The translations under genes were made by a program, and so were the position numbers. A DNA stretch of 64,000 nucleotides from Escherichia coli. Lineage in GTDB: Bacteria; Pseudomonadota; Gammaproteobacteria; Enterobacterales; Enterobacteriaceae. The DNA lies in assembly GCF_044647545.1 (NCBI RefSeq), contig NZ_CP172818.1; one strand, 5' to 3'. The notes under the pieces are model-generated. The model had not been told where the DNA came from. It was given only the letters and a program-made list of their open reading frames with translations, and searched no databases. Shown here piece by piece: positions 1-13,858 of this stretch (position 1 is the stretch's first letter; each line of letters begins with the position of its first letter).

Positions 1-88
1 GCGCTTCATCCTTAAACTGCAACACGTCGATGGTCGCCAGCGCTGAGCCGGAGATCATCAGCATCAGCACGCCCAATAAAAACCTCAT
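1..88 (-). CDS. ccmH: Cytochrome c maturation protein CcmH, 5' end only (start codon at 86-88, rest lies beyond window start)
   Basis: Minus-strand translation from 88 gives MRFLLGVLMLMISGSALATIDVLQFKDEA, matching the CcmH N-terminus; start overlaps ccmG stop (ATGA). Confidence 0.85.
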   Translation of the reverse strand, partial: MRFLLGVLMLMISGSALATIDVLQFKDEA

Positions 89-642
89 TGTGCGGCCTCC
101 TTACTGTATTTCTCCCACAGCGGCTTGATCTCTTCTTCCCAGACGCGAGGATTGAGATCGCCCGCATGGCGATAGCGAATGATGCCGTTGCCGTCGATGA
201 GGAACGTTTCTGGCGCGCCATAGACACCGAGATCCAGCCCTAACATGCCATCGCCATCAAACAGGCTTAGCGCGTAAGGATTGCCCAGCTCTTTCAGCCA
301 GCTGATTGCCTTCTGGCGATCGTCTTTATAGTTCATGCCGACCACGCGAATGCCCTGCGCAGAAAGCTGATTCAGATATTGATGTTCCGCACGGCAGGTC
401 GGACACCAGGTCGCCCAGACGTTAAGCAGCACAGGTTTGCCCTGAGTCAGCACATCCGCCTGATAAAACTGCCCCGGATTGTCCAGTGATTCGAGGCGAA
501 ACTTCGGCACTGGCTTGCCAATGAGCGCCGATTCCAGATTGGTCGGATCATCCCCTTCGGCATTACGCGCCAGCTGCCACAGTAGCGCCGCGGCAATCGC
601 CAGGAAGATAATCAACGGAATTAACAATACTTTGCGCTTCAT
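85..642 (-). CDS. ccmG: Thiol:disulfide interchange protein CcmG/DsbE (periplasmic thioredoxin-like, WCPTC motif)
   Basis: 185-aa ORF with CPTC active site; position in ccm operon. Confidence 0.95.
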   Translation of the reverse strand: MKRKVLLIPLIIFLAIAAALLWQLARNAEGDDPTNLESALIGKPVPKFRLESLDNPGQFYQADVLTQGKPVLLNVWATWCPTCRAEHQYLNQLSAQGIRVVGMNYKDDRQKAISWLKELGNPYALSLFDGDGMLGLDLGVYGAPETFLIDGNGIIRYRHAGDLNPRVWEEEIKPLWEKYSKEAAQ

Positions 643-2582
643 ACAGCCTCCGGCGCAGTTTTTTGCGGACTCACGCGCTTACGATAGCGAGGATCAAACA
701 GGCACAGCAGCCCGCCCAATGCCATCATCAGCCCGCCCGCCCAAATCCAGCGAACAAACGGTTTGTAGTAAAGACGCACGGCCCACGCGCCGTTTTCCAG
801 CTCTTCACCGAGCGCGGCGTACAGGTCACGCGTGATGCCGCCGTCAATCGCCGCTTCGGTCATCATCGACCCGGCAGTGTTGTAATAACGTTTTTCCGCA
901 TACAGCACCGTTTCCGGCTTGCCATCGCGCGTTACGCCGATAGTCGCCACACCGCCACGCCAGTTCGGGCCAGTCACCTCTTTGACATCACGGAAGGTGA
1001 AGCGATATTCATGAATATCGACACTATCGCCGGACTTCATGCGCACATCACGCTCAACGCTATAGTTCTGGCTAAAGGCAATACCAACAATTGTCACTGC
1101 CAGCCCCAGGTGAGCCGCCACCATTCCCCAATAACTGAAGGTGGTTTTCGTGCCGCGTGAAATACGCAGCGCAGCTTCCGCAATTGCCAGCACCGCAATC
1201 CAGCAGGCCATTGCCAGGCCGAGCACCGTCATCGCCACCACTTTGCTTTCGAACAGCCACGGCAACAGCAGCGACAGCACCAGCGTAGAGATGAAGGCGA
1301 TAATCAACAAATTGCGGATTTTACGTGGGCGATCGCGCCCCCAGCGCACCAGAGGACCGACACCAAGCAGCAGCGCAAACGGCACCATCAGCCAGGTAAA
1401 CATGGTGTTGAAGAACGGTTCGCCAATCGAAATACTGCCCAGTCCCAGTTGCTTGTGCACCAGCGGCAGCAGCGTCCCCAGCAACACCACCAGCATCGCG
1501 GCGACCAGCAAAACGTTGTTCGCTAACAACAGAGATTCCCGCGACCACAGCGCATTGTTTACGCGTGAGCGAACTTTGTGTCCACGCGCGGCAAACAGCA
1601 GCAGCGAACCACCAATCACCAGTACCATAAAGGCGAGGATAAACATACCGCGTGCCGGATCAGAGGCAAACGCGTGTACCGATACCAGCACGCCGGAACG
1701 CACCAGGAAAGTCCCCAGCAGACACAACGAGAAGGCACTGATTGCCAGCAGTAATGTCCACGCTTTGAAGCTGGCGCGTTGTTCAGTGACCGCCAGTGAG
1801 TGCATCAGCGCAGTCCCCACCAGCCACGGCATAAACGAGGCGTTTTCTACCGGATCCCAGAACCACCAGCCGCCCCAGCCGAGTTCGTAATAGGCCCATG
1901 CGGAACCGAGCACAATGCCGAGCGTCAAGAAGATCCACGCCGCCAGCGTCCACGGACGAGTAAAACGCGCATAAGTGCTGTCCAGACGCCCGCTCAACAA
2001 AGAAGCAATGGCAAAAGCAAACGCCACCGAGAAGCCGACGTACCCCATATAAAGCAGAGGCGGATGGAAGATCAGCCCCGGATCCTGTAACAGCGGGTTA
2101 AGATCGCGACCTTCAATCGGGAAGTTCGGCAACGTGCGTGAGAACGGGTTAGAGGTAAAGAGAATGAACAGCAAAAAGCCGACGCTGACCATCCCCATTA
2201 TCGCCAGTACGCGGGCCACAATATCCAGCGGAATACGCTGACTAAAAATCGCTACCGCAAAGGTCCAGCCGCTCATCAGCAGCACCCACAGCAGGAGCGA
2301 GCCTTCATGCGCGCCCCAGGTAGCCGCCACGCGATACCACACCGGAAGCTGGGTATTGGAGTTGCTGGCAACATAGGTGACGGTGAAGTCGTTGACCACG
2401 AAGGCATTGACCAGTACCAGAAATGCGCCAGCCACAGACATAAACAGCAGCCAGGCAAACAAGCGGGAAGACGCCATCATGCGCGCATCTCCGCGCGCTA
2501 CGCCCCATAGCGGATACACGGACAGCAGCAGCGCAATTCCTAGCGCCAGACACAGCAGCCCGTTACCAATTTCCGGCATCAT
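639..2582 (-). CDS. ccmF: Cytochrome c-type biogenesis heme lyase subunit CcmF
   Basis: 647-aa polytopic membrane ORF; stop/start overlaps with ccmG and ccmE. Confidence 0.95.
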
Positions 2583-3058
2583 GATGCTGGGTCCTTATAA
2601 ACACTCGCCGGGCGACGGTGATTGGCTTCCATCGCTTTCTCAACTTCTGGTGGCGTGTAGTTTTCGTCGTGTTTCGCCAGCACTTCTTTCGCGAGGATAT
2701 GATTGCCTTTTTCCAGTTCGCCCTGCACCACAACGCCCTGCCCTTCACGGAACAGATCCGGCAAAATGCCTTCGTAAGAGACATCTACTGAACCTTCAGC
2801 GTCGTAAATGGTGAAAGTTACTTTTAGCGAATTGGGATCGCGCTGCACACTACCCGGCATCACCATCCCGCCAACGCGCAGACGCTGACCGACTTCCGGC
2901 ATTTGCTGAGTTTCACGCTTGCCGTAGAGAATTTCCCCCGGCGTATAAAAGAGATCGATATTCGAGCGCAGCGCATATAGCACCAGACCGATAGTCAGCG
3001 CCAGCCCCGCCAAAACGGCACAGGCAATCCACAAGCGGTTTTTACGGCGAATATTCAT
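2579..3058 (-). CDS. ccmE: Heme chaperone CcmE
   Basis: 159-aa ORF, N-terminal membrane anchor, operon context. Confidence 0.95.
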
Positions 3059-3264
3059 GCAGCCTCCTGCTGTTGCGCAGCACGTAAACGCGCCTCACGC
3101 GCCCGCTGTTGCGCCACGCCACGCAGAATTGCGCGATGCTGCATCACCGAGTGCACGACCAAAACCACCAGAGGAATGACGGTCATCACCACCGCCAGCC
3201 AGACAAAAAAGGCGTAACCGCCCATTGCGAAAAATTCATTCCAGGAAGCAAATGCAGGGGTCAT
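3055..3264 (-). CDS. ccmD: Heme exporter small subunit CcmD
   Basis: 69-aa ORF overlapping ccmE start and ccmC stop. Confidence 0.9.
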
Positions 3265-3998
3265 TTACGGCCTCTTTTCAGTATCAGTTCACTCACCCAC
3301 GGACGGCGTTTTTCCATCAGCAAAATCAAATTACGCATCCGCATCAGCGTCAGCGTGGCAGACAGGAGCAGGAAGCCAAAAATCGACCAGCGCAGCGGCG
3401 AACGCATCGCCGGATCGATACTTTGCTGCATCCGCGTTGATCCCTGATGCAGGGTGTTCCACCACTCCACGGAGTAATGAATAATCGGCAGATTCACCAC
3501 GCCAATCAGCACCAGAATACCTGCAGCACGGCCCGCCAGACGGCGGTCGTCGAAGGCGTGCCACAGGGCAATGACACCAACATACAAAAACAGCAGCACC
3601 AGTTCAGAAGTCAGACGTGCATCCCATACCCACCAGGTGCCCCACATCGGTTTTCCCCATGCAGAGCCGGTAACCAGGGCAATAAAGGTAAACACGGCAC
3701 CAATGGGGGCCATCGCCGCCACCGCCAGGTTGGCCATTTTCATCTGCCAGACAAGGCCAATAAACGCCGCCACCGCCATTGATGCATAAATGCCCATCGA
3801 CCAGATCGCCGCAGGCACATGCAGGTAGATAATGCGGTAGCTATTTCCCTGCTGATAATCAGCCGGAGCAAAGCCGAATCCCCAGATCCAGCCGACGGTA
3901 AGCACGACCACACTGGCAATTGCCAGCCACGGTATAAACCAGCCACAGATTTGATACAGCCGTGGTGGGATCGCCAGTTGATGCAGTGTTTTCCACAT
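3261..3998 (-). CDS. ccmC: Heme exporter protein CcmC
   Basis: ORF track extends to 4022 (TTG); conserved N-terminus MWKTLHQ starts at the ATG at 3998, giving 245 aa. Confidence 0.9.
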   Translation of the reverse strand: MWKTLHQLAIPPRLYQICGWFIPWLAIASVVVLTVGWIWGFGFAPADYQQGNSYRIIYLHVPAAIWSMGIYASMAVAAFIGLVWQMKMANLAVAAMAPIGAVFTFIALVTGSAWGKPMWGTWWVWDARLTSELVLLFLYVGVIALWHAFDDRRLAGRAAGILVLIGVVNLPIIHYSVEWWNTLHQGSTRMQQSIDPAMRSPLRWSIFGFLLLSATLTLMRMRNLILLMEKRRPWVSELILKRGRK

Positions 3999-4039
3999 AG
4001 TTTCGATACCAGACTCGAACAAAAATCAGTAATCCAGCG

Positions 4040-4702
4040 TTATTGAATGCTGATTCGTAACGCTGCCGCCGTCGCAAAAGGACTTAAAGTCGCGGTGCCT
4101 GCCAGCAACGCGCCTAAAATTGCCAGATACCCATCAACGGGCAAATGCATAGAAGCCGCGTCCATCGCGGCGGTGGCAAAGATGAGTAATGGGATAGTCA
4201 GCGGTAACACCAATATGCTGAGCAGCACACCACCGCGCTTAAGTCCCACTGTCAGCGCCACGCCCGGTGCACCGAGAAAGCCAAGCGTAGGGGTTCCCAG
4301 CAGCAGCGTCAGCGCCATCACTTGCCAGCCATAAACATCCATTCCCAGTAGCATTGCTACCAGGGGCGAAAGGATGAGTAACGGCAGACCGGTTACCATC
4401 CAGTGCGCCATCACCTTCGCCAGCACAACGGCGGGCAAGGGTAACGGCAACAACATCAATTGTTCAAGACTGCCGTCCTGCAAATCGTCACGGAACAATC
4501 GTTCCAGCGCCAGCAAGGATGAAAGCAGCGCAGCAACCCAGATAATGCCCGGTGCAATACGCGCCAGCAGTTGCGGCTCCGGACCGATACTGAGCGGAAA
4601 AAGGGTAATGACAATCAGGAAGAACCACAGCGGGTTGGCGATTTCGGCGCTATGGCGAAACGCTACGCGCAGCTCAAGACGGAAAATGCGCCAGAACATC
4701 AT
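4040..4702 (-). CDS. ccmB: Heme exporter permease CcmB
   Basis: 220-aa membrane ORF; overlaps ccmA stop. Confidence 0.95.
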
Positions 4703-5322
4703 GCGGCCCCCGTTTGCGTCAGTGAAATGCGGCGAATTTTACTTTCAGCAACGTTGAGCGGCTGGTGGGTAGTCAGAATCACAGTCCCCCCCTGCTCCGT
4801 ATGCTGCGCCATACGCTTGGTCAGACGATCGACGCCGTTAACGTCAATCGCGGTAAAAGGCTCGTCGAGTATCCATAACGTGGCACGGGTCAGCCACAGA
4901 CGCGCTAAAGCGACGCGGCGTTGTTGCCCGGCAGAAAGTTGATTTACCGGAATATCTTCGAATCCGGCAAGCCCAGCCTGCGCCAGGGCTTCCAGACATT
5001 GTGCGGTATCGCCATCGCGATGATAAAAGTGCAGATTTTCTAACGCCGTCAGCCGGGTTTTGATCCCCGGCTGATGGCCTATCCATAACAGGTTTTGATG
5101 GTAGCTGTCGCGTACCTGATGCAAGGGCTGCCCTTGCCAGAGAACGTCACCCGCATCAGGGCGAGACAACCCCGTCAGCAAACGGAGAAGCGTTGTCTTC
5201 CCCGCGCCGTTGCTACCGGTGATTTGTACCCACTCTCCTGCGTTCAGCGTAAATGACAAGCCACTAAATAAGGTTCGTTCATCCCGCTCGCAAAGTAACT
5301 CTCTGGCTTCAAGCATACCCAC
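4699..5322 (-). CDS. ccmA: Heme exporter ATP-binding protein CcmA (ABC ATPase, Walker A GSNGAGKT)
   Basis: 207-aa ORF with Walker A and LSAGQ signature; apparent GTG start. Confidence 0.93.
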
Positions 5323-5334
5323 GCAATAACCCTG

Positions 5335-5937
5335 TTAAAAACCTGGCTCGACTTCGCGCATATCGGGCAGCTTGTGCGCTATCCCTTTATGGCAATCAAT
5401 ACAGGTTTGCCCATCTTTCACCGCCTGGTCATGCATCTTCGCGGCAACTGATTTCTGGGCGGTTGTATCCATATACTCGAAGTTGTGACAGTTACGGCAC
5501 TCCTGCGAGTTATTGTCCTTCATGCGCCGCCACTCATTCTGTGCCATCGTCAGGCGATGAGCTTCAAATTTCTGCGGCGTGTCAATAACGCCAAAAATTT
5601 TACCATACAGCTCTTTACTTGCTTTGAGCTTGCGTATCATCTTCGGCACAAACTCGTGCGGAACGTGACAATCCGGACAGGTCGCACGAACGCCGCTACG
5701 GTTGTTGTAGTGCACGGAATCCATGTATTCCTGATACACCGTGTTACGCATTTCGTGGCAGCTAATGCAGAACTCTTCGGTATTGGCTTTTTCCATCCCG
5801 GTGTTAAAGCCGCCCCAGAAGACGATACCGCCGACAAAACCGATCAACAGCAGCGTCCCCAGCGCCAGACGGCTGGGGGTACGCCACCATTTCCACAGGC
5901 GCTTAATCAGACCAGGCTTACGGTCAGAATTTCCCAT
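5335..5937 (-). CDS. napC: Membrane-anchored tetraheme cytochrome c NapC
   Basis: 200-aa ORF with four CxxCH motifs. Confidence 0.95.
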   Translation of the reverse strand: MGNSDRKPGLIKRLWKWWRTPSRLALGTLLLIGFVGGIVFWGGFNTGMEKANTEEFCISCHEMRNTVYQEYMDSVHYNNRSGVRATCPDCHVPHEFVPKMIRKLKASKELYGKIFGVIDTPQKFEAHRLTMAQNEWRRMKDNNSQECRNCHNFEYMDTTAQKSVAAKMHDQAVKDGQTCIDCHKGIAHKLPDMREVEPGF

Positions 5938-5946
5938 AATAACCTC

Positions 5947-6396
5947 TTATTTCCCGTAACCTTTTGATGGGGTAAAGGTATTCCCCACGATTGGCGCGGT
6001 ATCGGCCTGCGGTACGTGACATTGCAGACAGAAATAACGACGCGGAGCCACTTCCGCGCCCACTTTGCCGTCGCTGTCCATAAAGTGAGTAGGACTAATG
6101 CGCGGCGCGCCAGTGGTGCGATAGCTTTCGACACCGTGGCACTGCAAGCAGCGGTTGGTATTGGTCGTTACCTGATAACCTTCAACGCTATGCGGGATCA
6201 TTGGCGGCTGATTCACATAGTTCAGCGGCATCCGATCCTGCTCTTTTGGCATCCGAATGGCCCCTTCCTGCGTCCCGGATACTTCCGGCGACTGGCTAAA
6301 ATCGACGCCATTAGCCGCCCAAACCGCGCCGCTTACCACCAGGGCCAGCATCGCCGTCCATTGACACAGCGCTTTCTTCAGGTCATGGCTTTTCAT
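5947..6396 (-). CDS. napB: Periplasmic nitrate reductase diheme cytochrome c subunit NapB
   Basis: ORF track starts at 6417; conserved start MKSHDL at 6396 overlaps napH stop (ATGA); two CxxCH motifs. Confidence 0.92.
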   Translation of the reverse strand: MKSHDLKKALCQWTAMLALVVSGAVWAANGVDFSQSPEVSGTQEGAIRMPKEQDRMPLNYVNQPPMIPHSVEGYQVTTNTNRCLQCHGVESYRTTGAPRISPTHFMDSDGKVGAEVAPRRYFCLQCHVPQADTAPIVGNTFTPSKGYGK

Positions 6397-7256
6397 GATT
6401 TCGCTCCCGAACTCCATCGTGTAGTTATTGTAAATACATCCTCAGAACAGACATCCACGCAGCGACCGCACGTCATGCAATCGCGGCTGGTGACCTGCAC
6501 CGGGCTTTGTTCATCCAGCACCGGGGCACGTAGCACATGCGGTTCCGGGCAAACATGAAAACAATCCATACAGCGGTTACATTTCTGCCGATCGTTGGCA
6601 GCAACGGTAATCACACCTTTGCTACCCAGCACGCCATACAGCGCGCCAACCGGACAAATGTGCCCGCACCAGCCGTGTTCAACGACCAGTAGATCAAATA
6701 AAAACAGCGCGAGAATAAGCAGCGCGCCGCTGCCGAATCCCATTACCAGACTGCGCCCCATCAGGGAAACGGGGTTGATCCATTCCCAGATGAGCGTGCC
6801 GGTTAAGGCCGATCCCACCAGAATGACCACCAACAACACGTAGCGAATGTGGCGTGGGATCGTCGCAGACTGATTGAGGTCAAAGCGCCTGCGTAACCAG
6901 TTCGCTAAGTCGGTAATCGGGTTCAGCGGGCAGACCCAGCTGCAAAATAATCGCTTTCCTGCCAGGGCGTAGAGCACGGTGATAATCACCGCACCAGTCA
7001 GCGCTACCGTGGCAGGCAGATGACCGCTGGCAAGGCTTTGCAGCGTCATCAGCGGATCGGTCAGCGGAACGGTGTCGAATAACAGGCTACTGCTGTAGTT
7101 GCCGTGCAAGATCCACACACCAAACCACGGACCGCTCAAAAACATCCCCAGCACGAAGAACTGACAAAGGCGACGTAACACTAACCAACGGTGACTGCGC
7201 CACCAGCCTTTTTTCTCCAGCGCCTCGCGCCCGGCGTCACGTTTACGATTTGCCAT
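6393..7256 (-). CDS. napH: Ferredoxin-type membrane protein NapH
   Basis: 287-aa ORF with TM segments and Cys clusters. Confidence 0.95.
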
Positions 7257-7938
7257 TGTTCCCCTCCAGCCAGCCGAAGCGGTAATGGTGACCTAACTCC
7301 CCTTTCGCTAGTGACAGCGGTAACACCTTGATTGCCGGTTGTTCCAGCACGCACACTTTTTCGCACTTACCGCAACCGGTACAGGCGTCGCTGTGAACCG
7401 TCGGCAGAAAGCGGGCGTGCTTACCGGTACGCGTGTTGCGCTCCAGCTCCAGGGTGATGGCCTCATCAATTTTCGGGCATTCGCGATAACAAACATCGCA
7501 GCGCAGCCCCTGAAAGTTGAGACAGTTTTCCTGGTCCACCAGCACCGCCAGCCCCATCCGCGCGTCGTCGATCGATTCGATCTCACGATCCAGCGCACCG
7601 CTCGGGCACACTTTGGCGCACGGAATGTCCTCACACATTTCGCAAGGAATATCCCGCGCAACAAAATATGGCGTGCCCGCCGACAGGCCTGAGGCCAGCG
7701 TCGCCAGTTTTAAGGTGTCGTAAGGGCAAGCCTGAACACACTGACCGCAACGCACACAGGCACTGGCAAAGGCGTTCTCGTTTATGGCTCCGGGCGGGCG
7801 CAACCGCACGCCAGATGCGCGTGCGGTTTGCTGTTGTAACCCCAGCGCCACACCCACGGCAGCCAGCCCGCCTGCTGTGCGAACAACATCGCGCAGAAAG
7901 CGGCGGCGACCATTTTGAGGTTTCGCTGACCGGGACAT
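7243..7938 (-). CDS. napG: Ferredoxin-type protein NapG (Tat signal, 4Fe-4S clusters)
   Basis: 231-aa ORF with RRRFLR twin-arginine motif and multiple CxxCxxC motifs. Confidence 0.95.
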
Positions 7939-7944
7939 AATGGC

Positions 7945-10431
7945 TTACACCTTCTCCAGTTTGACCGCGCACTTCTTGAAGTCCGTCTCTTTCGAGAGCG
8001 GATCGGTCGCGTCCAGCGTCAGTTTGTTAACCAGCTGTGCGGCATCGAAGAACGGCATGTACACCAGGCCCTGTGGCGGACGGTTACGACCGCGCGTTTC
8101 GACAATCGAGATCACTTCGCCACGGCGAGAAACTACTTTCACTTTGTCGCCACGGCGCAGATCGCGCGCTTTCGCATCCAGCGGGTGAATAAACAGAACC
8201 GCTTCCGGGAAGGCACGGTGCAGTTCCGGCACACGGCGAGTCATACTGCCGGTGTGCCAGTGCTCCAGGACGCGTCCGGTAGAGAGCCACAGGTCGTACT
8301 CTTCATCCGGTGCTTCCGCCGCCGGTTCGAACGGCAGCGCGAAGATCACCGCTTTACCATCCGGTTTACCGTAGAACTTATAGCCTTCGCCCGCTTTCAC
8401 GTACGGGTCGTTACCTTCGCTGTAACGCCACTGCGTTTCTTTACCGTTCACCACCGGCCAGCGCAGACCGCGCGCTTTGTGGTAGTCATCGAACGGTGCC
8501 AGATCGTGACCGTGACCGCGACCAAACCATGCGTATTCTTCGAACAGCCCTTTTTGCAGATAGAAGCCCAGCTCGCGGGATTCATCGTTCAGCTGATCTT
8601 CCGCCAGTTCGGATACCGGGAATTTGCTCACTTCCGGGGTGGCATACAGAACTTCGTACAGCGTTTTGCCACGCAGTTCCGGTTTCTTCGCCAGCAGCTC
8701 TTCCGGCCATACTTCTTCAGTTTTAAAGCGGCGGGAGAACTGGACTAACTGCCAGAGATCCGATTTCGCTTCGCCCGGTGCCTGTACCTGCTGACGCCAG
8801 AACTGAGTACGGCGTTCGGCGTTACCGTAAGCGCCCTCTTTCTCTACCCACATTGCGGTCGGCAGGATCAAGTCGGCGGCCAGCGCACTGACTGTCGGAT
8901 ACGGATCGGAAACGATGATGAAGTTGCGCGGATCGCGCCAGCCCGGCATACGCTCTTCATTAATGTTCGGTCCGGCCTGCATGTTATTGGTACACATGGT
9001 CCAGTAAACATTCAGTTTGCCGTCTTTCAGCGCACGGTCTTGTGCCACCGCGTGCAGACCGATTTTCGCCGGAATGGTGCCACTCGGGATATTCCACTTC
9101 TTCTCGCAAATATCACGATGTTTCTCGTTAGTCACCACCATGTCCGCAGGCAGACGGTGAGCAAAGGTGCCCACTTCACGCGCAGTACCACACGCGGAAG
9201 GCTGCCCGGTCAGGGAGAACGGACCGCAACCCGGCTGGGAAATTTTGCCGGTCAGCAGGTGCAGGTTGTAGACCAGGTTGTTGGCCCACACGCCACGAGT
9301 ATGCTGGTTGAAGCCCATCGTCCAGTAGGAGATGACTTTCTTGTTCGGATCGGCATACAGCTGCGCCAGTTGTTCTAACTGGTCTTTCGGCACGCCGGTC
9401 ATTTCGGCAGTTTTTTCCAGCGTATACTCAGCAACGAAGGCTTTGTAATCTTCAAAGCTCATCGGTTCGGAGGCGTCAGAACCTGGATTCTTCGCTGCTT
9501 TTTCCAGTGGATGGGTCGGACGTAAACCGTAGCCGATGTCCGTCGCCCCTTTGCGCAGGTTAACGTGTTTGCTAAAGAAGTCCTGATTTATCGCATTGTT
9601 TTGAATGATATAGTTGGCGATGTAGTTCAGAATCACCAGGTCTGATTGCGGCGTAAAGATGATGCCGTTATCCGCCAGCTCGAAGCTACGATGCTGGTAG
9701 GTAGAAAGCACCGCCACGGTAACGTTCTGGTTAGAGAGACGACGGTTAGTGATGCGCGACCAGAGGATCGGGTGCATCTCCGCCATGTTTGCGCCCCACA
9801 GCACAAACGCGTCAGCCTGCTCGATGTCGTCATAGCAGCCCATCGGCTCATCCATACCAAAGGTACGCATAAAGCCAACTACTGCCGACGCCATACAGTG
9901 ACGCGCGTTCGGGTCGATGTTGTTCGAACGGAAGCCCGCTTTAAACAGCTTGGACGCGGCATAACCTTCCCAGATAGTCCACTGACCAGAACCGAACATA
10001 CCGATCGATTCCGGCCCTTTTTCTTTCAGGGCGGTTTTGAATTTCTCTTCCATCACATCGAAGGCTTGATCCCAGGTGATTGGGGTAAATTCGCCTTCTT
10101 TGTCATATTTACCGTTTTTCATACGCAGCAGCGGCTGCGTCAAACGGTCTTTACCGTACATGATTTTGGGCAGGAAATAGCCCTTAATGCAGTTCAGGCC
10201 ACGGTTAACCGGTGCATCCGGGTCGCCCTGACAGGCCACCACACGCCCCTGCTGCGTTCCGACCAGAACGCCGCAACCAGTACCGCAGAAACGGCACGGC
10301 GCTTTATCCCATTTAATGGCTTCCTGCTGACCAACAACGGCGCGGGCAACGCCCGGCACGCTGAGACCGGCAGCCGCCGCAGCGGCCGCAACGGCGTTAG
10401 CTTTCATAAAGCTACGACGACTGAGTTTCAT
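7945..10431 (-). CDS. napA: Periplasmic nitrate reductase catalytic subunit NapA (molybdopterin)
   Basis: 828-aa ORF with Tat signal (SRRSFMK) and N-terminal Cys cluster. Confidence 0.97.
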
Positions 10432-10691
10432 GGTGTTTCCTCACCTTGCTCTTCCTGCTGGTGATAAACCAGCGACACCGCCAGCACGCCCTCTACGTTG
10501 CGTACTGACTCAATGGTTTGAATCAGCGTTTCGCTGTCTTCTGCTTCCACCACCACAATCAACTGACCGCTCGGCGCGTCGCTGACAGCAACTTCACAGC
10601 CGGGAAAGGCGTTCAGTTGGGTGCTGATGTCTGAAATTCGTTCGCTTTTGGCCTGCACGACCAGACTGCAAACTTGCCAGTTAGTGTGCAT
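10428..10691 (-). CDS. napD: NapA chaperone NapD
   Basis: 87-aa ORF overlapping napA start and napF stop. Confidence 0.93.
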
Positions 10692-11175
10692 GGAGATACT
10701 CCGCAGTTATGGCTGATACCGGACAGCTGGCTGCACATGCTCCACATCCGTTGCAAAGTTGGCTATTAAGTTGCGGCTGGTAGATCCCGGAGAGCGTCGG
10801 GCGAAAGATAATTGCCATTGGCTCACAGCTATCCTGACAGCGGCGGCATTCAACTGACTGATACGCCAGGCACGCGTCCCCAATGGTGAACTGCAAATCC
10901 CAGGCCCTGGTGTGGCGCGGAGAAAATAGCGATTCGGGGCAAGCCTGCGCGCAGGCGTAACAGAAGCTGCACTCGTTATTTTTGAAATTAACGCTCGGAT
11001 AGCCACCCGCGCCGCGTTGCAGAATGTTGTTTTCACAAGCATTAATACAGGCGTCGCAGCGGGTGCAATGGGTCAGAAAATGAGATTCATCACCGGACCA
11101 GGGCGGACGGATACCGTTACTGGCTTTGCGCCAGCGACCAGTGAGTATGCCCCGACGGGATGCATCAATCTTCAC
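10681..11175 (-). CDS. napF: Ferredoxin-type protein NapF
   Basis: 164-aa ORF with several 4Fe-4S Cys motifs; GTG start. Confidence 0.93.
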   Translation of the reverse strand: MKIDASRRGILTGRWRKASNGIRPPWSGDESHFLTHCTRCDACINACENNILQRGAGGYPSVNFKNNECSFCYACAQACPESLFSPRHTRAWDLQFTIGDACLAYQSVECRRCQDSCEPMAIIFRPTLSGIYQPQLNSQLCNGCGACAASCPVSAITAEYLHAH

Positions 11176-11288
11176 ATTGACCTTCCATCATTAACGCGCT
11201 CTGAAAATTGAGAGCGACCAAATAAACCGCATAATTAATAAGCCATTTTTATAGCCGCTAAGATATTAAAGGATGTGTCAAAGATGCA

Positions 11289-11304
11289 TACCCCGATCGG
11301 GGTA
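11289..11304 (-). promoter_or_regulatory. NarP/NarL 7-2-7 heptamer pair in the napF promoter (TACCCCGATCGGGGTA)
   Basis: Perfect 16-bp palindrome about 115 bp upstream of the napF start; matches the known nap promoter NarP site. Confidence 0.75.
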
Positions 11305-11582
11305 AAACCTGTAGCAGGATCAAAAGAGTGGCGGGAAGCGTGGCAAAAACGGGCTTTTGCTCACATTTCAAATGGTTATAAACATATTTATATAGCGATT
11401 AATTCGCCAGAGATATTTCTGCTGGTTTGTTTTCTCATCAGAATTTAACACTAAAAGAGCAGGTAAAATTATCTGAATGTTCTTTAAGTTATTCATAAAG
11501 CAAATTAATAAATCTGATGAATATGTTAACCTTCAGCGACATCATCGGTGAAAACCTATAAATGAAGAAGGAAAGCAAAAAA

Positions 11583-12071
11583 ATGAAGACCATTCTACCT
11601 GCAGTATTGTTTGCCGCTTTCGCCACCACTTCCGCCTGGGCGGCAGAAAGCGTCCAGCCGCTGGAAAAAATCGCACCTTATCCACAAGCTGAAAAAGGCA
11701 TGAAGCGTCAGGTGATTCAGTTAACTCCGCAAGAAGATGAATCTACCCTGAAAGTAGAACTGTTAATCGGTCAGACGCTGGAAGTCGATTGCAATTTGCA
11801 TCGTCTCGGCGGGAAGCTGGAAAGCAAAACGCTGGAAGGCTGGGGCTATGATTATTATGTCTTTGATAAAGTTAGCTCGCCGGTTTCCACGATGATGGCC
11901 TGCCCGGATGGCAAGAAAGAGAAGAAATTTGTCACCGCGTATCTGGGCGATGCCGGAATGCTGCGTTATAACAGCAAGCTGCCGATCGTGGTGTATACGC
12001 CAGACAATGTGGATGTGAAGTACCGCATCTGGAAGGCGGAAGAGAAAATTGACAACGCGGTTGTTCGCTAA
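11583..12071 (+). CDS. eco: Ecotin, periplasmic serine protease inhibitor
   Basis: ORF track starts at 11562; conserved start MKTILPAV at 11583 with signal peptide. Confidence 0.93.
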
Positions 12072-12079
12072 ACTACTGG

Positions 12080-12195
12080 AGGATAAGGCGGTTACGCTGC
12101 ATCCGACATCTAACGCCCGAGCCGGTTGCCTGATGCGACGCTGACGCGTCTTATTAGCATACGCCACATCCGGCAAACCATGCCGGATGTGGCAC
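12080..12195. repeat. REP/BIME-like palindromic repeats plus hairpin between convergent eco and mqo
   Basis: GCCTGATGCGACGCTGACGCGTCTTAT-type REP motifs and inverted repeat GCCACATCCGGCA...TGCCGGATGTGGC. Confidence 0.7.
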
Positions 12196-12199
12196 ATCA

Positions 12200-13858
<1,659 letters not shown>

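What the first reader, a model, noticed from the sequence alone, without database searches (positions are those of the whole stretch)
85..11175. Fifteen-gene nap-ccm cluster with pervasive stop/start overlaps
Nearly every junction from napF through ccmH is a 1-4 nt overlap or a gap under 20 bp (for example the ATGA overlaps at napH/napB, ccmG/ccmH and ccmF/ccmG), consistent with one polycistronic unit translated by coupling. It is textbook, but it confirms the module is intact here and gives a local baseline for the similar packing in the yfa operon.
Basis: partly seen in the sequence, partly recalled or inferred. Interest (0 to 1): 0.15.

Follow-up and report, generated by a model that had tools for sequence, protein, structure and literature searches.

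The report
E. coli nap-ccm operon, tightly packed

Summary
Window 1-12078 is E. coli chromosome. It is 100% identical to several sequenced strains and 97-99% identical to K-12. It holds napFDAGHBC-ccmABCDEFG on the minus strand. That is 14 complete genes, not 15: ccmH starts at 88 and runs off the left edge, with only 29 codons present.

All 14 genes have K-12 lengths, no internal stops, and full-length matches to their NCBIfam families.

Junction distances:
- Eight are ATGA overlaps (-4): napD/A, napH/B, ccmA/B, C/D, D/E, E/F, F/G, G/H.
- Two are longer overlaps: napF/D at -11 and napG/H at -14.
- Three are short gaps of +6, +9 and +12.
- ccmB/ccmC is a 41-nt gap.
- There are no 1-nt overlaps.

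So "nearly every junction" holds for 11 of 14.

Packing is denser than the E. coli average (p about 0.001), but not clearly denser than other tight operons in the window.

Coupled translation is plausible at the ATGA junctions, which carry strong Shine-Dalgarno motifs. It is unlikely at ccmB/ccmC. That gap recurs across Proteobacteria, and ccmA and ccmC lack Shine-Dalgarno motifs.

One transcript from the napF promoter is established knowledge. From memory only, a second ccmA promoter is reported.

Verdict: already known, low interest.

The parts
10681..11175 (-). napF, ferredoxin-type protein, 164 aa, GTG start
   Evidence: NCBIfam TIGR00402 scores 248 bits (cut-off 102) and covers residues 7-157. 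Identical to the K-12 protein.
10428..10691 (-). napD, NapA signal-peptide chaperone, 87 aa. Overlaps napF by 11 nt.
   Evidence: NF007840 full length, 168 bits. Identical to K-12.
7945..10431 (-). napA, catalytic molybdoenzyme subunit, 828 aa. ATGA overlap with napD.
   Evidence: TIGR01706 1655 bits, full length. One substitution against K-12, D578E.
7243..7938 (-). napG, ferredoxin-type protein, 231 aa. Lies 6 nt after the napA stop.
   Evidence: NF007012 416 bits.
6393..7256 (-). napH, quinol dehydrogenase ferredoxin subunit, 287 aa. Overlaps napG by 14 nt.
   Evidence: NF007013 471 bits. T221N against K-12.
5947..6396 (-). napB, dihaem cytochrome c subunit, 149 aa. ATGA overlap with napH.
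   Evidence: NF008609 matches 1-149 of 149. The upstream ATG at 6417 has no Shine-Dalgarno motif (+1.9 against -6.6 kcal/mol).
5335..5937 (-). napC, tetrahaem quinol dehydrogenase, 200 aa. Lies 9 nt after the napB stop.
   Evidence: NF007906 full length, 463 bits.
4699..5322 (-). ccmA, ABC ATPase, 207 aa. Annotated GTG start lies 12 nt after the napC stop, and an ATG two codons later (5316) is also possible. No Shine-Dalgarno motif above background.
   Evidence: Four substitutions against K-12.
4040..4702 (-). ccmB, ABC permease, 220 aa. ATGA overlap with ccmA.
   Evidence: TIGR01190 317 bits, full profile.
3999..4039 (-). 41-nt untranslated gap between ccmB and ccmC, the only junction wider than 12 nt. 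It has no Shine-Dalgarno motif and no significant RNA structure.
   Evidence: (z = -0.15). A gap at this junction recurs in 48 of 66 proteobacterial loci, median 58 nt.
3261..3998 (-). ccmC, haem-handling membrane protein, 245 aa
   Evidence: TIGR01191 282 bits. The N-terminus MWK.LH is conserved across gamma-proteobacteria, which fixes the start codon.
3055..3264 (-). ccmD, 69 aa. ATGA overlap with ccmC.
   Evidence: TIGR03141.
2579..3058 (-). ccmE, haem chaperone, 159 aa. ATGA overlap with ccmD.
   Evidence: NF009635 322 bits. This -4 overlap is found in 22 of 31 loci across Proteobacteria.
639..2582 (-). ccmF, haem lyase, 647 aa. ATGA overlap with ccmE.
   Evidence: TIGR00353 1016 bits. Positions 1800-1910 are 85% identical to the paralogue nrfE.
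85..642 (-). ccmG (dsbE), thiol:disulfide oxidoreductase, 185 aa. ATGA overlap with ccmF.
   Evidence: NF011941 full length, 422 bits.
1..88 (-). First 29 codons of ccmH only. ATGA overlap with ccmG. The remaining 965 nt lie outside the window.
   Evidence: The strongest Shine-Dalgarno motif of the cluster, -12.1 kcal/mol.
11289..11323 (-). napF control region. FNR-like site TTGATCCTGCTACA (11323-11310) and the NarP/NarL 7-2-7 palindrome TACCCCGATCGGGGTA (11304-11289), with centres 20 bp apart.
   Evidence: Read directly from the sequence. The assignment to the published -64.5 and -44.5 sites (Darwin and Stewart) is from memory, because those papers are not held.

Best explanation
This is the E. 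coli aeg-46.5 operon, napFDAGHBC-ccmABCDEFGH. It encodes the periplasmic nitrate reductase, its electron-donor proteins, and the System I cytochrome c maturation machinery that attaches haem to NapB and NapC.

Transcription starts at the FNR- and NarP/NarL-controlled promoter upstream of napF and reads through all 15 genes. From memory, a second, weaker promoter within the nap genes also feeds the ccm genes.

I infer the following for translation:
- At the eight ATGA junctions, the ribosome terminating on UGA most likely reinitiates on the overlapping AUG, helped by a Shine-Dalgarno motif inside the upstream gene. This links output within napD-napA, napH-napB, ccmA-ccmB and the train ccmC-D-E-F-G-H.
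- At the short gaps (+6, +9, +12), initiation is probably mostly independent.
- At the 41-nt ccmB/ccmC gap it must be independent.
- ccmA and ccmC have no recognisable Shine-Dalgarno motif. They probably act as weak entry points that keep Ccm output low relative to Nap.

Shown here: gene identity, integrity and junction geometry. Inferred: coupling and its consequences.
For: Identity and conservation:
- 12 kb is 100% identical to complete E. coli genomes. 5416 of 5426 genomes carry at least 80% of it.
- RefSeq annotation gives the same 15 genes.

Integrity:
- All 14 in-window proteins have K-12 length with 0-4 substitutions.
- All pass their NCBIfam cut-offs over the full length.

Geometry:
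- Eight junctions are ATGA. All 8 TGA stops in the cluster sit in an ATGA, and the other 6 stops are TAA.

Shine-Dalgarno strength:
- Mean is -8.3 kcal/mol at ATGA junctions against -4.7 at gapped ones (Mann-Whitney p = 0.024).
- ATGA junctions against background give p = 1.6e-6. ccmA and ccmC are at background, at 0.32 and 0.41.

Published tests:
- Four of 5 native E. coli -4 pairs were translationally coupled (PMC6728339).
- Coupling was almost lost at +38 nt (PMC10666635).

Conservation across species:
- Enterobacterales keep the same pattern.
- Across 120 proteobacterial loci, ccmA/B, D/E and E/F are mostly -4, while ccmB/C is gapped.

Operon status:
- Sense-strand terminator-like sites are not enriched, and the best of them lie inside translated genes.
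Against: - No experiment on any nap or ccm junction was found, and one of five tested E. coli ATGA pairs (bioBF) was not coupled.
- Two junctions (-11, -14) lie outside the -8..+6 class for which coupling was measured.
- Start codons in the cross-species survey were called by homology, not verified.
- The single-transcript picture is incomplete if the internal ccmA promoter that I recall is real.
- One data set reports ccmA responding to cAMP differently from napFDAGHBC.
- A hairpin in napB (6060-6039, -13 kcal/mol, broken T tail) and one in ccmD (3223-3210, -7.6 kcal/mol, TTTTTG) cannot be excluded as partial attenuators.
Confidence: 0.85

Rival explanations
1. The overlaps are only a by-product of genome compaction and mutational drift of start and stop codons. 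Each gene is translated from its own Shine-Dalgarno site, with no functional coupling.
For: - Thirteen of 15 starts have a Shine-Dalgarno motif in the top 7% of background, enough for independent initiation.
- The bioBF ATGA pair initiates de novo.
- Against other tight pairs of the same window, the excess of -4 overlaps is not significant (p = 0.12).
Against: - Four of 5 native ATGA pairs tested in E. coli were coupled.
- The -4 geometry at ccmA/B, D/E and E/F persists across alpha-, beta- and gamma-proteobacteria despite low sequence identity.
- Short overlaps are enriched 4.5-fold among heteromeric-complex genes in E. coli.
Confidence: 0.15
2. The cluster works as two or more expression units rather than one. 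The nap genes are driven by the nitrate- and FNR-regulated napF promoter. The ccm genes are supplied largely from an internal promoter, so that cytochrome c maturation does not depend on nitrate induction.
For: - My recollection of Tanapongpipat et al. 1998, not verifiable here.
- Ccm is also needed for Nrf, Tor and other c-type cytochromes.
- ccmA follows a non-overlapping gap and has no Shine-Dalgarno motif.
- ccmA showed a cAMP response different from napFDAGHBC.
- In most other Proteobacteria, ccm is not linked to nap: only 5 of 120 loci show napC next to ccmA.
Against: - The 12-nt napC/ccmA gap cannot hold a terminator plus a promoter.
- The scan found no sigma-70-like site on the sense strand anywhere in 1-12200.
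- The FNR-like match 70 nt upstream of ccmA is the napC CIDCHK haem motif, and such matches occur at chance frequency.
- This rival complements rather than excludes read-through from napF.
Confidence: 0.4
3. The ccmB/ccmC gap is a deliberate expression step. It uncouples CcmC-H from CcmA-B so that the two blocks are made at different rates.
For: - The gap is present in 48 of 66 loci. Even with the longest possible ccmC reading frame, the median is still 36 nt.
- The ccmC start is fixed by the conserved MWK.LH N-terminus.
- ccmC has the weakest Shine-Dalgarno motif of the cluster.
- Reinitiation is almost lost at +38 nt.
- Haemophilus haemolyticus has a strong hairpin plus T run in this gap (z = -5.8).
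- The complex has been solved both as Ccm(AB)2CD and as Ccm(ABCD)2.
Against: - The gap varies in length (1-166 nt) and in sequence. The E. coli gap has no significant structure (z = -0.15).
- Shewanella and Rheinheimera have only 1 nt at this junction.
- No expression data were examined.
Confidence: 0.2

Closest known systems
E. coli K-12 aeg-46.5 operon, napFDAGHBC-ccmABCDEFGH (b2208-b2194)
   Same: Same 15 genes, order, strand and lengths, and identical junction distances at every junction. Nucleotide identity is 97.3-99.6% per gene, with 0-4 amino-acid changes per protein.
   Different: Only strain-level polymorphism: NapA D578E, NapH T221N and four changes in CcmA. In the window the last gene, ccmH, is cut by the edge.
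E. coli nrfABCDEFG operon (formate-dependent nitrite reductase with its own haem-lyase genes)
   Same: A paralogous haem-lyase module: nrfE is related to ccmF and shares 112 nt at 85% identity. Packing is equally tight in K-12: nrfB/C -4, nrfC/D -4, nrfE/F -8, nrfF/G -4.
   Different: A different locus and a different enzyme. It has no ABC transporter or CcmE, and it depends on the ccm genes studied here.
Overlapping gene pairs translated by termination-reinitiation (Huber et al. 2019 and the 2023 follow-up, PMC6728339 and PMC10666635)
   Same: [quoted passage not shown]
   Different: None of the nap or ccm pairs was among the pairs tested. Six of the 14 junctions here are not -4 overlaps.
ccm clusters of other Proteobacteria (for example Haemophilus, Vibrio, Citrobacter, rhizobia)
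   Same: ccmA/B, ccmD/E and ccmE/F are mostly -4, and ccmB/ccmC is mostly gapped.
   Different: Most are not linked to nap. Linkage of napC to ccmA was seen only in Escherichia, Citrobacter, Enterobacter and two further loci.

Membership tests
Periplasmic nitrate reductase (Nap) gene set, E. coli type napFDAGHBC | All seven proteins present, full length, each above the curated cut-off of its own equivalog model | tested here: met
   NapF 248 bits (cut-off 102), NapD 168 (113), NapA 1655 (931), NapG 416 (269), NapH 471 (234), NapB 329 (230), NapC 463 (349).
Periplasmic nitrate reductase (Nap) gene set, E. coli type napFDAGHBC | Gene order F-D-A-G-H-B-C on one strand, with no interruption | tested here: met
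System I cytochrome c maturation (CcmABCDEFGH) | CcmA to CcmG present, full length and above cut-off | tested here: met
   CcmA 330 bits (cut-off 195), CcmB 317 (156), CcmC 282 (186), CcmD 67 (26), CcmE 322 (264), CcmF 1016 (569), DsbE/CcmG 422 (359).
System I cytochrome c maturation (CcmABCDEFGH) | CcmH present and intact | tested here: inconclusive
   Only 29 codons lie in the window. The gene is intact (350 aa, 348/350 identical to K-12) in NZ_AP022098.1, which is identical to the window over 1-12078. The window's own source cannot be read past its edge.
Single polycistronic operon | No room for a terminator plus promoter at any junction, and no enrichment of terminator-like sites | tested here: met
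   The largest gap is 41 nt. Fifteen terminator-like sites were found against 14.2 expected, and all sense-strand ones downstream of the napF start lie inside coding sequence.
Single polycistronic operon | One mRNA shown to span all 15 genes | not testable with these tools
   This needs RNA data. The literature names the unit as one operon. The paper on ccm transcription is not held.
Translational coupling by termination-reinitiation | Stop and start codons overlap (-4 or -1) or lie within a few nucleotides | tested here: met
   Met at 8 of 14 junctions (ATGA), and borderline at napA/napG (+6). Not met at -11, -14, +9, +12 and +41.
Translational coupling by termination-reinitiation | Shine-Dalgarno motif inside the upstream gene, ahead of the downstream start | tested here: met
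   All 8 ATGA junctions score -5.8 to -12.1 kcal/mol, within the top 7% of background.
Translational coupling by termination-reinitiation | Downstream translation depends on ribosomes reaching the upstream stop codon | not testable with these tools
   This needs reporter constructs with premature stop codons, as in PMC6728339.

The most novel reading that the evidence does not exclude
The junction pattern may act as a conserved code for expression. Two starts without Shine-Dalgarno motifs (ccmA and ccmC), each after a non-overlapping gap, would set low entry rates, and ATGA trains would then propagate those rates. The ccmB/ccmC break, which recurs across Proteobacteria, would make CcmC-H at a rate different from CcmA-B. 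If so, measured synthesis ratios could help decide between the two published stoichiometries of the haem-release complex, Ccm(AB)2CD and Ccm(ABCD)2.
Probability: 0.15. Interest if true: 0.3.

Novelty: already known. Interest (0 to 1): 0.07.

Why it matters
It matters little beyond annotation quality. The check confirms that this strain carries a complete, unmutated Nap and Ccm A-to-G gene set. It corrects the gene count and the junction table. It also shows that the window alone cannot vouch for ccmH.

The one mildly useful by-product is the ccmB/ccmC junction. It is the only uncoupled junction in the ccm block, it is gapped across Proteobacteria, and it coincides with starts that lack Shine-Dalgarno motifs. 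That gives a cheap, testable handle on how Ccm subunit ratios are set.

Tried and rejected
1. An FNR-dependent ccmA promoter. A 1-mismatch FNR match at 5386-5399 lies 70 nt upstream of ccmA. However, such matches occur at chance frequency in the window (3 found, 2.4 expected), and this one is the napC haem motif C-I-D-C-H-K, degraded in Citrobacter and Enterobacter. Rejected.

2. A regulatory RNA structure in the E. coli ccmB/ccmC gap. The fold is no better than shuffles (z = -0.15). Only Haemophilus haemolyticus shows a strong hairpin.

3. Genes on the opposite strand. The six longest antisense reading frames (160-272 aa) and yojO have no Pfam match. I treat the antisense frames as shadows of the sense genes.

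4. RNA families. Rfam finds nothing inside 85-11175.

5. Alternative starts that would change the junction table.
   - napB ATG 6417 has no Shine-Dalgarno motif, and the family profile fits the 149-aa form.
   - ccmC TTG 4022 is contradicted by the conserved MWK N-terminus.
   - ccmA ATG 5316 remains possible and would widen the napC/ccmA gap from 12 to 18 nt.

6. The second megablast place per genome. It is the nrfE paralogue of ccmF, not a duplication of the cluster.

7. Primary papers on napF and ccm transcription (PMC193976, PMC1219697, PMC107417, PMC2632075). None is held, so statements about promoter positions and the internal ccmA promoter rest on memory. Text searches for them gave nothing usable.
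Full report
**What the sequence is.** A megablast of window 1-12000 against 5,426 complete E. coli genomes matched 5,425 of them. Of these, 5,416 carry at least 80% of the query in one place, and several strains are 100% identical. RefSeq annotation of one identical strain (NZ_AP022098.1) places these genes on the minus strand, read in the direction of transcription from high to low coordinates: napF, napD, napA, napG, napH, napB, napC, ccmA, ccmB, ccmC, ccmD, ccmE, ccmF, dsbE (ccmG) and ccmH. K-12 MG1655 has the same genes with the same lengths. The window is identical to NZ_AP022098.1 only up to position 12078. It therefore comes from a closely related but different strain.

**Checking the observation.** I recomputed every gene and junction from the window.
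- The stated range 85-11175 contains 14 complete genes, not 15.
- Position 85 is the last base of the ccmG stop codon. ccmH begins at 88 and runs off the left edge, so only 29 codons are present.
- All 14 genes have a start codon, a stop codon and no internal stop.
- All have exactly the K-12 length, with 0-4 amino-acid differences.
- Each matches its own NCBIfam model over the full length, above the curated cut-off.
- ccmH is intact (350 aa) in the identical strain, but that cannot be read from the window itself.

Junction distances, in the direction of transcription:

| Junction | Distance (nt) |
|---|---|
| napF/D | -11 |
| napD/A | -4 |
| napA/G | +6 |
| napG/H | -14 |
| napH/B | -4 |
| napB/C | +9 |
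| napC/ccmA | +12 |
| ccmA/B | -4 |
| ccmB/C | +41 |
| ccmC/D | -4 |
| ccmD/E | -4 |
| ccmE/F | -4 |
| ccmF/G | -4 |
| ccmG/H | -4 |

- All eight -4 junctions read ATGA.
- All eight TGA stop codons of the cluster belong to an ATGA. The other six stops are TAA.
- There is no 1-nt overlap.
Two junctions are longer overlaps, and ccmB/ccmC is a 41-nt gap.

**Is this more than chance?**
- A published census counts 2,987 co-directional gene pairs in E. coli. Of these, 24% lie between -8 and +6, and 7% lie in a small peak at +9 to +12 (PMC10666635).
- Here 9 of 14 junctions fall in the first class (binomial p = 1.4e-3). Two fall in the second class, which is unremarkable.
- Against the other 21 same-strand neighbour pairs of this window, -4 overlaps are 8/14 versus 3/21 (p = 0.011).
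- Against only the 13 tight pairs (distance 30 nt or less), the count is 8/14 versus 3/13 (p = 0.12).
- The cluster is therefore dense, but not clearly denser than other operons nearby.

**Transcription.**
- The literature treats the 15 genes as one operon, called aeg-46.5 or napFDAGHBC-ccmABCDEFGH.
- Upstream of napF the sequence shows an FNR-like site (11323-11310) and a perfect 7-2-7 palindrome TACCCCGATCGGGGTA (11304-11289), with centres 20 bp apart. Further upstream lies a ModE-like TATAT-rich element.
- From memory, this matches the published napF control region. The primary papers are not in the held library.
- Terminator-like sites are at chance frequency: 15 found against 14.2 +/- 4.7 expected.
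- The most convincing sense-strand hairpins lie inside translated genes. One is in napB at 6060-6039 (-13 kcal/mol, interrupted T tail). One is in ccmD at 3223-3210 (-7.6 kcal/mol).
- No junction is wide enough for a terminator plus a promoter.
- From memory, Tanapongpipat et al. 1998 reported an additional promoter that feeds ccmA from within the nap genes. I could not read that paper, and the consensus scan found no sigma-70-like site on the sense strand.
- One data set reports that ccmA responds to cAMP differently from napFDAGHBC. This fits a partly separate supply for ccm.
- A 1-mismatch FNR match 70 nt upstream of ccmA looked promising. It is the napC haem motif CIDCHK, and such matches occur at chance frequency. 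I rejected it.

**Translation.**
- I scored pairing between the 16S rRNA 3' end and positions -18 to -3 of every start, against all 16-nt windows of the sense strand as background.
- Thirteen of 15 starts are in the top 7% of background.
- The eight ATGA junctions average -8.3 kcal/mol. The four gapped junctions average -4.7 (p = 0.024).
- ccmA and ccmC are indistinguishable from background. These are the two genes that follow the widest gaps.
- Published reporter experiments on native E. coli pairs found coupling at 4 of 5 ATGA pairs (PMC6728339). Reinitiation dropped 40-80% at +14 nt and was almost lost at +38 nt (PMC10666635).
- The best-supported reading has three parts:
  - termination-reinitiation at the eight ATGA junctions;
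  - mostly independent initiation at +6, +9 and +12;
  - necessarily independent and probably weak initiation at ccmC.
- The -11 and -14 overlaps are outside the tested range. None of this has been tested on the nap or ccm genes themselves.

**Related sequences.**
- A DNA pattern for the CcmC tryptophan-rich motif retrieved 120 loci from alpha-, beta- and gamma-proteobacteria.
- With homology-guided start calls, -4 overlaps were found as follows: ccmA/B in 28 of 61 loci, ccmD/E in 22 of 31, and ccmE/F in 32 of 53.
- By contrast, ccmB/ccmC is gapped by more than 20 nt in 48 of 66 loci, with a median of 58 nt.
- Even with the longest possible ccmC reading frame, the median gap is 36 nt.
- The ccmC start is fixed by a conserved MWK.LH N-terminus.
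- Enterobacterales keep the whole E. coli pattern, including -11, -14, +6 and +9 in the nap part.
- The gap varies in length and sequence. The E. coli gap has no significant structure (z = -0.15). Haemophilus haemolyticus has a strong hairpin with a T run (z = -5.8).
- The CcmABCD complex has been solved as Ccm(AB)2CD and as Ccm(ABCD)2. An uncoupled ccmB/ccmC junction would allow unequal synthesis, but this is speculation.

**Other strand and other features.**
- The six longest antisense reading frames and yojO have no Pfam match.
- Rfam finds nothing inside the cluster.
- The second megablast place per genome is the nrfE paralogue of ccmF.

**Verdict.** The feature is real and correctly named, and it is already known in full. 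One operon is established, though probably with a second promoter. Coupling is plausible at eight junctions and unlikely at ccmB/ccmC. Interest is low.

Noticed in passing
window 12077-12159 (+), between eco and mqo: A sub-threshold match to Rfam naRNA4 (40.6 bits, gathering score 59.5), a REP-derived nucleoid-associated RNA. This is exactly where the window stops being identical to NZ_AP022098.1: the first difference is at 12079, with indels.
   Followed up: partly
window 11284-11448 (+): The 54-aa yojO reading frame, annotated as hypothetical, lies on the opposite strand directly over the napF control region (FNR-like, NarP/NarL and ModE-like sites). It has no Pfam match.
   Followed up: partly
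window 43762-46389 (-), gyrA: GyrA carries Leu83 and Asn87. These are the classical double substitution for fluoroquinolone resistance (wild type is Ser83 and Asp87, from general knowledge). It differs from the NZ_AP022098.1 protein at residue 272, R instead of S.
   Followed up: partly
window 36767-41281 (-), yfaS homologue: The sequence is identical to a CDS that RefSeq marks as a pseudogene with an internal stop (alpha-2-macroglobulin family) in NZ_AP022098.1.
   Followed up: partly
window 56369-56830, between inaA and glpQ: NZ_AP022098.1 has a LysR-family regulator and an MFS transporter gene here, about 1.9 kb. The window has only 462 nt, so this is a strain-specific insertion or deletion.
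   Followed up: no
window 1800-1910 (ccmF) and K-12 nrfE (L124 6131-6241): A 112-nt stretch is 85% identical between ccmF and its paralogue nrfE. It explains why almost every E. coli genome gives two megablast places.
   Followed up: yes
L041 (Haemophilus haemolyticus), ccmB-ccmC gap: A perfect 9-bp hairpin followed by a T run sits between ccmB and ccmC (z = -5.8 against shuffles). It looks like an intrinsic terminator or attenuator inside the ccm cluster.
   Followed up: partly
L043 and L044 (Citrobacter werkmanii): There are two ccm clusters in one genome. One is linked to nap (CcmC 93% identical to E. coli) and one is not (80%).
   Followed up: no
window 5316-5322 (-), ccmA start: GTG-GGT-ATG offers two possible starts. 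Citrobacter keeps only the ATG and Enterobacter only the GTG, so the true E. coli start, and hence whether the gap is 12 or 18 nt, is uncertain.
   Followed up: partly
L001 2001-2036 versus L002 3148-3359 (outside the window, downstream of ccmH): The convergent ccmH-narP spacer is 34 nt in NZ_AP022098.1 but 210 nt in K-12, so the region that should hold the operon terminator differs between strains. The eco-mqo spacer also differs: 149 nt against 714 nt.
   Followed up: no
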